Shown here piece after piece: positions 10,079-60,455 of a stretch of DNA of 64,000 bases. The position numbers and the translations under genes are program-made. Source of the stretch: Eledone cirrhosa. Lineage: Eukaryota. The DNA is taken from assembly GCA_964016885.1 (NCBI GenBank), contig OZ024743.1, positions 182,900,001 to 182,964,000 of the forward strand, written 5' to 3'. Within the stretch, counting starts at the first letter, position 1, and every line of letters begins with the position of its first letter. The notes under the pieces were generated by a model. The model searched no databases and had not been told where the DNA came from. It was given only the letters and a program-made list of their open reading frames with translations.

Positions 10079-10153
10079 ATATATATATATATGTAGGAGG
10101 TGAGTTTTATTGTAGTACAATAAAGCAATGCAGATATTGAAGCCTCTGAGATT

Positions 10154-11452
10154 ATGTCAAAACTTGGCATTGAAAAAAAGACCGAACCATTCCTCCCAAG
10201 AACTCCGAGGATAAATCTCAAGGATCACAAAAACAATTTTCGCACTGAACTACCTGTTAGATTAATCGCCCCCTCTAAATCTGATCTGGGGGTTGTTAGT
10301 AAAGCCATCTTGGATAGAATTATCCCACAGGTTTGTTCTAATTGCTCTTCTTTGAACTTAAATTTATGGTTTGGTACTTCTGAAGTGATTGGCTGGTTCA
10401 ACAAATTGGATAATAAAAACAAACTAAAATTTATTCAATTTGATATTGCCAGCTACTATTCCTCCATTTCGCCTTCACTTCTCAATAATGCTCTATCTTT
10501 CGCACTTAAATATTCTGACATCACCACAGATGAACTTCACATCATCCTCACCGCACGTAAAACCATCCTAGAGTTCAACAACGAATATTGGACCAGAGCC
10601 GATACCTCTAACAACTTCGACATCACAATGGGAGCATCCGATTCATCCCAATTGACTGATTTAATTGGTATCTTTATTTTGAACTCTTTGAGTCGGAAAA
10701 TTCCTCAACTTCGCGGTGGAATTTATCGTGACGATGGACTCTTTACTATCTTAAATTGCAATATAGTTAACCTTAATATTATTAAGAACAATATACGTAA
10801 TCTCTTTAACCAACATAACCTAAAAATTGAATTTGATAACAATATCAAACTAGCTAATTTCTTGGATGTATCTCTTAATCTTGACACTGGCCTATATTAC
10901 CCTTACCATAAAAACAATGAGAACCTAAATTATGTTAACTTTAAATCTAACCATCCTACCAATATCAAGAATGCTATAGTTAGTAATATTGGAAAAAGAA
11001 TATCTAACATATCTTCTAATAAAAACATCTTTGATGCTAACGCCAATTACTATAATAACGCACTTTCTAAAGCCGGCTATCCTGATAAAATCAAATATAG
11101 TAAAGAAACAAATTCTAGAAGAACTTACAGTAGAATAATTAATCATGATCATTCCAATAACTTTAATAAAAGACCTAGATACAAAAACATAATCTGGTAT
11201 AATGCTCCTTTCTCCATCTCTATTAATAACAATATTCCTAAATTATTCTTTAGTGCCTTAAATAAATGCTTCCCTCCCTCACATATCTATAGTAAAATAT
11301 TTAACAAACACACCATAAAATTTTCTTATTCTACATCCTCCAATATTTCCAACATTATCTCTAAACACAACAATAAAATACTAAATACTAAATCTCTTCC
11401 TTCCAACACTGAATTTCATAATAACAGTAATAGTAACCCGACGTCATTGTAA
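10154..11452 (+). pseudogene. PLE reverse transcriptase (N-truncated; frame breaks in the Asn/Ser-rich linker)
   Basis: Motifs LKDHKNNF..VRLIAPSKSDLG, FIQFDIASYY, FDITMGASDS, GIYRDDGL, NFLDVSLNL, SNHP and IIWYNAPFS are typical of Naiad/Chlamys-group PLE RTs. Confidence 0.88.
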
Positions 11453-11599
11453 ACCCTAGGCTAATTTCTGTAAACCCAAATACAACGTCAAACACAACTT
11501 CGCTAAATGTTCATAATTCAACTCTAAATCATTCCTATCGCAAACAACTTCTCCAATCCAATTCCTTCTATAGATAACACTAGGTCACTCATTAATAAT

Positions 11600-12242
11600 C
11601 TCTCTAATTGCAATTGCAATTGCCCTATTAAAAATAAATGTCCTCTCAACAACCATTGTCTTGATAAAAACTTAATTTATGAATGTAAAGTTATAACTAA
11701 CAAGTTACTAACTGTTCAAGTATGAAGACGCAGAAGAAACCTTCTTCCAAAAGATGGTATATTTAATGTTTTTGTCTTTCAAGGACCATATGAGTTCTGA
11801 GAGAGCCGTGTTGGTTCTTTTAAGTTTGTATTTAAAAGATGAATGATGATTATAGAGACGAGCTTTAAAAGAGGTGGAAGTGGAGCCAAAATAGGTGAAG
11901 GAATTGTCCTTCACCTATTTTGGCTCCACTTCCACCTCTTTTAAAGCTCGTCTCTATAATCATCATTCATCTTTTAAATACAAACTTAAAAGAACCAACA
12001 CGGCTCTCTCAGAACTCATATGGTCCTTGAAAGACAAAAACATTAAATATACCATCTTTTGGAAGAAGGTTTCTTCTGCGTCTTCATACTTGAACAGTTC
12101 TATATCTAAAATCTGCAATCTCTGCCTAAATGAAAAATTTACCATTATCTCTAATCTAGATTCTATAATAAATAGACGAACTGACTTGTTTTCTATCTGC
12201 TTGCATAAATTCCATAAAACATTTCACAAAGTATACAGCTAA
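11600..12242 (+). pseudogene. GIY-YIG endonuclease of the PLE, interrupted by an inverted duplication (11710-11902)
   Basis: CNCPIKNKCPLNNHCLDKNLIYEC (about 11615-11690), then YFGSTSTSFKARLYNH..TALSELIWSLK..CNLCLNEK..INRR..CLH. Confidence 0.85.
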
Positions 12243-13104
12243 TATTCAATTCTTTATCAATTTAGAATCTTTTTCTCAAAGGCACATATACATACACCTC
12301 TTTTAAAATATACCCATCTTCCTACCTTATTTCAAAGGGTATTATACACTCTATAATACTTGTTTACTCATTACCCTTACTCTATTTTCACCTTGTAAAA
12401 TCCTTCGTAAACATATACATTTGTTTTGACGCCAGATTATTCATCCTTAATTCATTATTTTTTTCTCCCTATCATGTAACTCATTCTCAATACATATTAA
12501 CTTTTTCTTCGCACATATTATCAATTCCTTCAATATACAAACCTTAACTTCACATTATTTTTCTCAAACCCTTCAATATACAAACCTTAACTTTACATTT
12601 TTTTCTCTTCGTTAATTTTCAAATTTCCATAATACTTGTAAACATACACACTTTTTTTGACGTCAGAATGTTCATCCGCAATTCATTATTCTCTTCTCTC
12701 TATCATCAAACTCATTATTCTAATACATATTAACTCCCTCTCCTTCCTCGCACATATTTTTCCCTTTGTTAATTTTCAAATTCTTTTAATTTATACATTA
12801 TCTTCCAACGGTTTTCAACCTCTCTATGTAAAACAATATATCTTTCTCAGTTATAAAAACTATCTCTCTCTCTCTATCACCCATCTCTCCTCCTATCTCA
12901 TCCTTCCTCATTATATTCCTCCCTCTCCACCTTCACTCTCATCTCCTCCTCTTTTTTTCATCCTTTCCACCCCTCCCCCCAACCCCCCTCTAAATAAAAT
13001 ATTTTTTTCCCAATATCACACATCAATCTAAAACTACTTCTCATATGTTGATTTAAAACTGCACTATCCACAAGTGTTTTTTAGCCTTCATATCATGTCC
13101 TCCT

Positions 13105-58993: not shown

Positions 58994-59030
58994 TATATAT
59001 ATATATATATATATATATATATATATATAT

Positions 59031-59285
59031 CACCTTGACCGAGCAGTCTGTTGGGCGGCAATCGGCGCCTGTGGTCACAGCACGTTGTGCTGTTTTAGCC
59101 ATAAGATAACGCCACCCCACTGGTCGGGCGGGCAGGCCGGTGCTCATTTCTACAGCTGAGTAAACTGGAGCAACGTGAAATAAAGTGTCTTGCTCAAGGA
59201 AACAACACATCACCTGGTCCAAGAATTGAACTCACAACCTTTCGATTGCAAGCCCAATGCTTTAACTACTAAGCCATGCGCCTTC
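59031..59285 (-). mobile_element. tRNA-derived SINE with the same head but a different 3' tail
   Basis: 59143-59285 matches the SINE head and core; 59031-59142 is unrelated to the RTE-A tail. Confidence 0.85.
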
Positions 59286-59357
59286 ATATATATGTATATA
59301 TATGTATATATATGTATATATATATATATATATATATGTATATATATATATGTATAT

Positions 59358-60455
59358 ACAATATAAGATCAAAAGATGGTTAAAAGAGTTCCAAGTATTT
59401 TATTATGCGCATTTGAAAAACAAATATCATCATGGGTTGATATTTGCATTCTCATCAGATAAAATAGAGAGACATGATATGAAGCTTAAAAAACACTTGC
59501 GAGCAGTGAAGTGTTAAATCAACATATGAAAAATAAAGTAAGATGGATATATGAGGTTGGGAAAAAAAGGGGGGGGGGGTAGGAAAAGGTAAGGAAGAGG
59601 AAGAAAGAAAATAAAGGATGACGGGGGAGGAGTATAAGAAGGAAGGATGAGAGAGGAGGAGAAATGAGTGATAGAGAGAGAGAAGTAGCCTTTACAACTG
59701 AGAAAACATTGTCTCACAGAGAGAAATTAAAAAAACTGTTGAAAGATAATAGATCATTTTAAAAGATTTTGAAATTAAAAGTTAATGAGGTTTAAGAAGG
59801 GTGATGTTTATGATTAAAGAAAAAGGAATTAAGAATAGTATTTATTTAAGGTTTATATATTGAAGGGTTTAATAATATGTGCGAAAAAAAGAATTTATTA
59901 ATATGTATTATTAAAATGAAAATATTAAGGATATTAAGGATATAATGTGAAAGAAGGAGAGATTAAATTAATTATGAACTTAGAGGAATTAGTTAGGGTT
60001 TAAGTTTGTTTTTATGTATTGTAATATGTAAAAGTAAATAATAGGTTTAATACGAGCGCGGAAAGAGAGAAGAAAGAAGAAAATTTAAGGAGGAAAAAAT
60101 ATATAACGTCAAAAAGTATATATGTTTACAAAAATTTACTAATGGTAATATTAGTATATATTAAAAAAATATAGTTTGTATGGCCAAGGATATAAGGAAA
60201 AATGGAAAATGCTATAGTGAGTAATAATATGAATTAAGAAGTAATTGAGAAGTAAAAGTTACAGATTAAAGATTAGAAATTAAAAAAGAAAAAAGGAAGA
60301 AGGAAAAAGGATAAAAAGAAGAAAGCTAGGGGACCTCTAACGACATAGAATGAGTAAATTGTATAATATAATATATTGATATAAGGTAGAAAGATGGGTA
60401 TACTTATCCGATATTTGCATTGCTTTATTGTGCTACAATAAAACTCACCTCCTAC
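59358..60455 (-). mobile_element. Naiad-type PLE 3' UTR copy capped by the shared tail
   Basis: 59360-59760 is homologous to 12780-13213. Hammerhead at 59397-59466 with GAAA changed to CAAA. Tail at 60401-60455. Confidence 0.82.

What the first reader, a model, noticed from the sequence alone, without database searches (positions are those of the whole stretch)
10093..60455. One antisense tail caps three Naiad copies truncated at very different points
Seen: GTAGGAGGTGAGTTTTATTGTAG(C/T)ACAATAAAGCAATGCA.ATAT starts at the same base against (TA)n three times. At 10093 (46 nt) it joins into the RT ORF, at 60455 on the minus strand (55 nt) it joins into the 3' UTR, and at 28452 (about 88 nt) it continues into a 16-nt inverted copy of the element 3' end. 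The opposite ends all stop at …CATCTTTTG(A/T)TCTTATA. The 28452 copy shows the tail is the antisense of sequence lying just past the usual 3' end. It contains the hairpin TTTATTGT-agc-ACAATAAA. Inference: both target strands are primed at two fixed RNA sites and the two cDNAs are then joined at variable points, a sequence-programmed twin-priming mechanism.
Basis: partly seen in the sequence, partly recalled or inferred. Interest (0 to 1): 0.75.

Follow-up and report, generated by a model that had tools for sequence, protein, structure and literature searches.

The report
Twin-primed Hydra-clade Penelope insertions
The shared piece is the known 'tail' of a Penelope-like jumping gene (Hydra group, not Naiad), and most copies examined join one tailed and one untailed arm head to head, likely because both cut DNA strands start copying the element's RNA at two fixed points.

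Summary
The element is a Hydra-clade Penelope-like element, not a Naiad: the endonuclease is C-terminal, DKT and CxCX5C are present, CCHH is absent, and there is a hammerhead motif. The 23-nt tail motif has 12,980 exact genomic hits. It is the antisense of ~90 nt that follow the usual 3' end (site A) and lead into the 5' UTR in tandem copies. This is the published PLE tail, whose ends were mapped in vitro as two RT start sites (PMC11167929). In a 25.9-Mb census, 52 of 54 two-ended insertions pair a tail end (B) with an A end. The two arms share source alleles and often stop at one internal site (-165) preceded by a non-genomic G, likely a capped RNA start. Twin priming fits best. One correction: the tail arm usually reads past site A (66 of 83), so the window's short tails are the minority. 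The architecture is in print; I did not find the strict B/A pairing or the cap signal in print (five searches). The scan reported the same twin-priming reading on other DNA (53 findings, at least 15 genomes).

The parts
10093..10137 (-). Copy 1, tail arm (B arm): element positions +92 to +48 relative to site A, inverted; outer end against (TA)n
10106..10124 (-). 8-bp hairpin of the tail, 12 nt inside site B; function untested
10137..13208 (+). Copy 1, sense arm (A arm) from element position -3051 to site A: 5'-truncated RT-EN ORF (frame ends at 11452; EN part interrupted), 3' UTR, pLTR
11705..11906 (-). Internal inverted duplication (~200 bp) in the EN region of copy 1
13043..13043 (+). Position -165 (TC|ATATGTTG): commonest inner stop of both arms in the genome sample; inferred capped transcription start
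13106..13172 (+). Type I hammerhead motif (TTTTAT-CTGATGA-stem II-GAAA-TGCGCA-TA^ATAAAA), read by eye; Rfam gave no hammerhead hit
   Evidence: compared with PMC4209133 passages and the Hydra HHR table
13192..13208 (+). Site A end motif, against (TA)n
28452..28555 (-). Copy 2, tail arm: full 90-nt tail plus element end to position -13, inverted
28556..28586 (+). Copy 2, sense arm from position -30 to site A
60401..60455 (+). Copy 3, tail arm (~55 nt), inverted relative to the element body
59362..60400 (-). Copy 3, sense arm: 3' UTR and pLTR from about -984 to site A; hammerhead core GAAA reads CAAA

Best explanation
These are head-to-head insertions of a Hydra-clade Penelope-like retrotransposon whose two outer ends fall at two fixed element positions about 90 nt apart, likely because both cut strands of the (TA)n target prime reverse transcription, one at each site. 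Shown: each typical insertion is (TA)n, an inverted arm starting at site B (tail end), a junction, a sense arm ending at site A, and (TA)n. Inferred steps: (1) the endonuclease cuts both strands of (TA)n; (2) one 3' end pairs with the UA-rich site A and the other with 2 nt (AU or UA) at site B behind the hairpin; (3) both cDNAs are copied from RNA of one source element, probably the same molecule, with the B-primed RT displacing the A-primed cDNA when it passes site A; (4) the cDNAs stop at variable points or run off a capped 5' end at -165; (5) their 3' ends are joined by short microhomology or end joining. Priming at the 5' pLTR copy of the transcript would give the ~430-bp mini-palindromes, and priming at the 3' copy would give the long inserts.
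For: Pairing: 52 B-A, 2 A-A, 0 B-B among 54 two-ended insertions in the C1:0-25.9 Mb census (binomial p=1.6e-13 against 50%); 84, 2 and 3 in all 123 typed. Fixed outer ends: B 75 ATAT + 26 TAAT of 111; A 56 of 76 in one register. Not a fold-back: the A arm reaches >45 nt further into the element than the B arm in 36 of 82, and an A-primed cDNA contains no tail to copy. RNA run-off: one or both arms stop at -160..-169 in 38 of 82, both in 20. The base before -165 is G in 19 of 65 arm ends but 1 of 72 read-through arms. Genome-wide counts are G 2,271, A or T 2,463, read-through TC 5,969. An extra G marks cap copying in L1 (PMC11702581, passage). One source: the two arms of an insertion differ by 2.2% against 8.3% between insertions (56 scored of 57); 23 private alleles are shared by both arms. 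Arms stop within 45 nt of each other away from -165 in 9 of 32, against 1.85 expected (0 of 20,000 permutations). In vitro, the related PAc cuts and extends both strands and starts RT at two sites bracketing the tail (PMC11167929).
Against: No biochemistry or RNA data for this element. PAc showed no difference in start site between strands, so nothing published explains why one end takes A and the other B. 25 of 79 census insertions are one-ended or broken; by eye about 8 of the 123 are a single B arm and 3 a single A arm between TA repeats. 38 of 82 junctions are near-symmetric, which fold-back also predicts. In 3 of 56 insertions (L061, L138, L154) the arms are not each other's close match. 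Shared alleles show no A>G excess (3 of 23, against 10 of 109 single-arm), so 'same molecule' is not separated from 'same locus'. The trailing-polymerase prediction is weak: A further 19, B further 8 among the 65 that pass A, p=0.052. A single inserted G/C pair can also be the genomic -166 C of the other arm (4 cases). Target-site duplications cannot be read in (TA)n.
Confidence: 0.68

Rival explanations
1. Twin priming on two separate RNA molecules: a protein dimer carries two transcripts of one locus, one primed at A and one at B.
For: The arms overlap in 66 of 83, which needs no strand displacement under this model. A PAc dimer is predicted (PMC11167929). 3 of 56 insertions have poorly matched arms. 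No A>G editing signature ties the arms to one molecule.
Against: It does not by itself explain the 52:2:0 pairing or the excess of matched internal stops, 9 of 32 against 1.85.
Confidence: 0.12
2. One cDNA primed at B folds back or self-primes, then is resolved at A; a version with an antisense template was proposed by Arkhipova et al. 2013.
For: 38 of 82 junctions are near-symmetric, several are perfect palindromes at ATAT/CATG, and the arms are nearly identical. Copy 1 holds an internal fold-back-like inversion (11705-11906). The model is in print (PMC3846280, passage).
Against: The A arm extends beyond the B arm by >45 nt in 36 of 82, including window copies 1 and 3; copy 2 does so by 17 nt. 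A arms begin at -165 with a G while their B partner stops inside the tail (L091, L125, L135). It may still account for part of the symmetric class.
Confidence: 0.1
3. Both arms start at B, and the A end is an endonuclease cut at the TA-rich site A during resolution of the intermediate, as suggested by Craig et al. 2021.
For: Site A (CTTATATATTAT) resembles the (TA)n target, and both sites contain ATTA; PAc prefers ATT. The suggestion is in print (PMC8557442, passage).
Against: PAc starts RT at both tail ends in vitro. A cut would have to hit one arm only: B-B is 0 of 54 and A-A 2 of 54. A ends fall in registers set by TA homology, as expected of priming.
Confidence: 0.08
4. The tail is an independent short repeat that targets (TA)n and lands beside the element.
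For: 3 of 123 typed insertions are a tail fragment alone between TA repeats (L126, L155, L171).
Against: The tail is continuous with the pLTR on one side and with the 5' UTR and ORF on the other in tandem copies; 84 of 112 B-ended insertions end at site A of the same element.
Confidence: 0.01

Closest known systems
Hydra clade of C-terminal EN+ Penelope-like elements, e.g. Hydra-1_Obim (Craig et al. 2021, PMC8557442; section 11, passages and two supplement parts seen)
   Same: Single ORF with RT then GIY-YIG-type EN, DKT, CxCX5C linker, CxxC and CxH around the EN, no CCHH, hammerhead motif, (TA)n target. By eye the N-terminal half matches Hydra-1_Obim closely, including DKTNNLY; no alignment was run.
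   Different: A different family: other hammerhead sequence, a 3.7-kb unit against <3 kb, an Asn-rich stretch before the linker, RWI for RWK. About 13,000 exact tail hits. Hydra-1_Obim is listed with no pLTR.
PLE 'tail' with 5' inverted copy (PMC8557442 fig. 2 legend; PMC3846280 Pen2a_Av; passages seen)
   Same: A pLTR extension present at only one end, an inverted 5'-truncated copy at the 5' end, partial tandems.
   Different: The tail here is 90-92 nt rather than 30-40. Those papers attribute it to EN resolution or self-priming and give no counts of end pairing in the passages read.
PAc (Poseidon, Anolis) internal initiation (Frangieh et al. 2024, PMC11167929; main text and start of the methods read, supplements not read)
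   Same: Two start sites bracket the tail, downstream of the hammerhead, near an AC-rich stem-loop; AT-rich target; both strands cut and extended; uncleaved RNA is the main template.
   Different: Another clade. There the sites lie inside the ORF; here they lie in the 5' UTR. That paper does not link the two sites to the two arms of an inverted insertion and invokes second-strand synthesis.
L1 twin priming (Ostertag and Kazazian 2001, seen only as cited and described in PMC11702581 passages)
   Same: Both target ends prime on the RNA and the two cDNAs are joined, giving a 5' inversion.
   Different: In L1 it is a minority outcome, the second primer anneals at variable internal sites and the pieces barely overlap. 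Here it is the majority outcome, both sites are fixed and the arms usually overlap.

Membership tests
Naiad | N-terminal GIY-YIG EN before the RT | tested here: not met
   Intact ORF of L083: YRDD at aa 357, linker at 658, EN motifs after it
Naiad | No canonical hammerhead | tested here: not met
   Hammerhead core with stems I-III at 13106-13172, read by eye; Rfam scan gave no hammerhead hit
Hydra clade PLE | Single ORF, C-terminal EN | tested here: met
   ~797-aa ORF in L083; Pfam gave no significant family
Hydra clade PLE | DKT in place of DKG; RWK motif | tested here: met
   DKT at 124; RWI at 38, one residue off
Hydra clade PLE | CxCX5C linker; CxxC and CxH in EN; CCHH absent | tested here: met
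   CNCPVKNKC 658, CNLC 758, CLH 786; no cysteine pair inside the YFG..R core (by eye)
Hydra clade PLE | Hammerhead in pLTR and (TA)n target | tested here: met
   100 of 103 exact tail matches abut TA-type repeats, the other 3 read into the element
Hydra clade PLE | Generally under 3 kb | tested here: not met
   Unit 3,709 bp in L083, including a ~110-bp nested microsatellite; the paper says 'generally'
Hydra clade PLE | Placement in the RT phylogeny with Hydra families | not tested
   No tree built; published Hydra proteins compared by eye only
PLE tail signature | pLTR extension into downstream element sequence, present at one end | tested here: met
PLE tail signature | Tail ends are RT initiation sites | not testable with these tools
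   Shown in vitro for PAc only; inferred here from fixed ends
L1-type twin priming | Second primer at a variable internal site, non-overlapping inverted pieces | tested here: not met
   Second site fixed; arms overlap in 66 of 83. It works like twin priming but is not the L1 form.

The most novel reading that the evidence does not exclude
In endonuclease-bearing Penelope-like elements, twin priming is the normal integration route: one RNA presents two programmed start sites, one for each cut target strand, so that both strands of the insert are completed from two first-strand cDNAs without classical second-strand synthesis. The one-sided tail, the inverted pLTR and the mini-palindromes that run off the capped RNA start are all products of this single reaction.
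Probability: 0.5. Interest if true: 0.7.

Novelty: new member of a known kind. Interest (0 to 1): 0.45.

Why it matters
How Penelope-like elements finish an insertion, and why they make inverted repeats with a one-sided tail, is an open question; the one in vitro study leaves the later steps unvalidated. This family gives thousands of natural products and three sharp predictions: one arm per start site, both arms from one source RNA, and run-off at a capped start 165 nt upstream of site A. Each can be tested in the existing in vitro system. The element itself and its structure are of a known kind, so the value lies in the mechanism, not in the parts.

Tried and rejected
Naiad label: rejected on domain order and motifs. 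Independent short repeat: rejected. Pfam found no significant family for the window ORF or the intact ORF. Rfam found only hairpin look-alikes of the internal inversion and of TA repeats, all below gathering score, and no hammerhead. Sequencing runs: no RNA holder listed, so the -165 start was not checked against reads. Hairpin function: the 5' stem strand has no frequent variant and the loop varies (A71/G22 of 94), but the 3' strand was fixed by my search pattern for most copies and there is no covariation; the 321-nt region folds no better than shuffles (z -0.94). Inconclusive. A>G editing shared by both arms: not enriched. Stops at the predicted hammerhead cut (-41/-42): at most 4 of 83 insertions have an arm end within 5 nt of it, so it is not a main stop here. 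Junction microhomology from BLAST ends is rough: 1-6 nt overlap in 29 of 83, blunt in 6, 1-7 extra nt in 23, larger overlaps in 8, larger gaps in 17; no null was computed. Rows handled before counts: three '-179/-179' junctions were recoded as -165 and one duplicate copy (L094) dropped; one of 57 insertions was too short to score; 2 of 100 census A-motif hits were not typed (one tandem junction, one 22-nt single arm). Literature searches for a twin-priming model of PLEs found none; the library lacks most subscription papers, including older Penelope reviews, and the supplements of PMC11167929 were not read.

Full report
Observation. The tail motif occurs three times in the window, at 10093(+), 28452(+) and 60455(-), against 0.00 expected. 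The end motif occurs at 13192(+), 28570(+) and 59378(-), against 0.03 expected. All ends abut TA-type repeats. I number positions from the last A of CTTATA (site A = 0). Copy 1 is a tail arm +92..+48 joined to a sense arm -3051..A, copy 2 is +92..-13 joined to -30..A, and copy 3 is about +92..+40 joined to about -984..A.

The element. Tandem copies elsewhere in the genome read pLTR, site A, 90-92 nt of tail, about 80 nt more, then the ATG (L071, L083; L090, L110). The tail is therefore the start of the element body. L083 holds an intact ORF with RWI (38), DKT (124), YRDD (357), CNCPVKNKC (658), CNLC (758) and CLH (786). This matches the published definition of the Hydra clade: C-terminal EN, DKT, CxCX5C, no CCHH, hammerhead, (TA)n target (PMC8557442 section 11). 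It fails the Naiad definition of an N-terminal EN and no hammerhead. By eye the protein resembles Hydra-1_Obim in that paper's supplement, but the hammerhead differs, so it is another family. A type I hammerhead with a palindromic stem III lies at 13106-13172; I read it by eye, and Rfam missed it.

Genome-wide anatomy. The genome holds 12,980 exact tail hits and 24,294 exact end-motif hits. I fetched stretches around the first 100 listed hits of each motif on contig C1 and typed 123 insertions, including the three in the window. The classes are B-A 84, A-A 2, B-B 3, and 34 one-ended or broken. The stretch beyond 25.9 Mb was chosen by tail hits only, so the fair count is the census of C1:0-25.9 Mb. 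It covers 58 of 58 tail hits and 98 of 100 end hits and gives 79 insertions: 52 B-A, 2 A-A, 0 B-B, 25 one-ended or broken (p=1.6e-13 for 52 of 54 against 50%). Of 103 exact tail matches in the fetched DNA, 100 abut TA repeats and 3 read on into the element. The B boundary falls in two registers 2 nt apart (75 ATAT, 26 TAAT of 111), each sharing 2 nt with the target. The A boundary is mostly TTAT (56 of 76) within a TA-rich stretch.

Inner ends. The tail arm stops inside the tail in 14 of 83 two-segment B-A insertions and reads past A in 66, so the window's short tails are the less common outcome. After recoding three junctions and dropping one duplicate (n=82), the A arm reaches further in 36, the B arm in 8, and 38 are within 45 nt. 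One or both arms stop at -160..-169 in 38 and both in 20. The genomic base before -165 is C. At arm ends it is G in 19 of 65, against 1 of 72 read-through arms. Genome-wide the motif is preceded by G 2,271 times, by A or T 2,463 times and by the read-through TC 5,969 times. An extra G at full-length L1 5' junctions is read as cap copying (PMC11702581, passage). I infer a capped RNA start at -165 (window 13043). A caveat is that a single inserted G/C pair may be the other arm's genomic C. No RNA run was listed to test it.

Source of the arms. Over -165..-1, the two arms of one insertion differ by 2.2% on average and arms of different insertions by 8.3% (56 scored). Three insertions are exceptions. 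Across the ORF and last 430 nt, 23 private alleles are shared by both arms and 109 lie on one arm, including shared ones where the A arm is far longer (L068, L097, L103, L146). Away from -165, the arms stop within 45 nt of each other in 9 of 32, against 1.85 by permutation; two of the nine are very short arms. This points to one source element and is compatible with one RNA molecule with a broken 5' end. It does not prove one molecule: there is no A>G excess, and the trailing-polymerase test gives p=0.052.

Mechanism. The products fit priming of both target strands at two fixed RNA sites, followed by joining of the two cDNAs (confidence 0.68 for the full model; about 0.8 with the two-RNA variant). 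Fold-back of one cDNA cannot give A-longer insertions, though it may give some symmetric ones. EN trimming at site A is not excluded but must act on one arm only. Since A arms lack the tail, only full-length B arms or tandems should yield transcripts with both 3' sites (inference; L083 is such a copy).

What is known. The one-sided tail and the inverted 5' copy are described for PLEs (PMC8557442 passages; PMC3846280 passages). PAc cuts and extends both strands and starts RT at two sites that bracket the tail (PMC11167929). Twin priming is known for L1. Five searches found no paper that assigns one site to each arm or reports cap run-off for PLEs; subscription papers and the PAc supplements were not seen. 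This scan has already reached the same reading on other DNA: 53 findings in at least 15 genomes, including other families of this genome. Those are unchecked notes and I do not count them as support. My reading was written down; the A>G test came from one of them.

Verdict. This is a new family of a known kind, with counts that make an open mechanistic question testable. Interest 0.45.

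Noticed in passing
window 11705-11906: Inverted duplication of ~200 bp inside the EN region of copy 1, forming a near-perfect hairpin centred near 11904; may be a template switch or fold-back during RT.
   Followed up: partly
window 10097-10105 (+), and every tail: Read antisense, the tail contains AG|GTGAGT, a match to the 5' splice-site consensus (recalled); about 13,000 copies could offer cryptic donors.
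   Followed up: no
window 1-5386: 48-bp tandem array of ~115 copies, 92% matches, with open frames on the minus strand.
   Followed up: no
window 20174-22663, 29437-31041, 46638-48428, 50343-53020, 57225-58667, 32285-34797: Many LINE-type RT and endonuclease ORFs, apparently of at least two kinds (RTE-like and CR1-like by recalled motifs), separated by long TA/TG microsatellites.
   Followed up: no
L074:756-760, L087:756-761 and similar junctions: Both arms stop at -165 and are joined through extra bases such as CATG or CATGAT that make a perfect palindrome; these look like cap-templated C plus short additions that anneal.
   Followed up: partly
L072:803-919, L090:5396-5432: Sense arms that run through the whole body and into the upstream pLTR, showing that the template spanned two copies of site A.
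   Followed up: partly
L094:974-8103: Two copies with identical junctions lie inverted 7 kb apart, part of a larger palindromic duplication.
   Followed up: no
L083:5400-8100 (flank): The intact tandem copy sits inside a Helitron-like Rep/helicase ORF (recalled motifs).
   Followed up: no
L112:1875-1910: A 22-nt single-arm insertion from site A between TA repeats, the shortest seen.
   Followed up: no
L099, L170: A diverged subfamily with a different pLTR start but the same tail and the same inner stop position.
   Followed up: no
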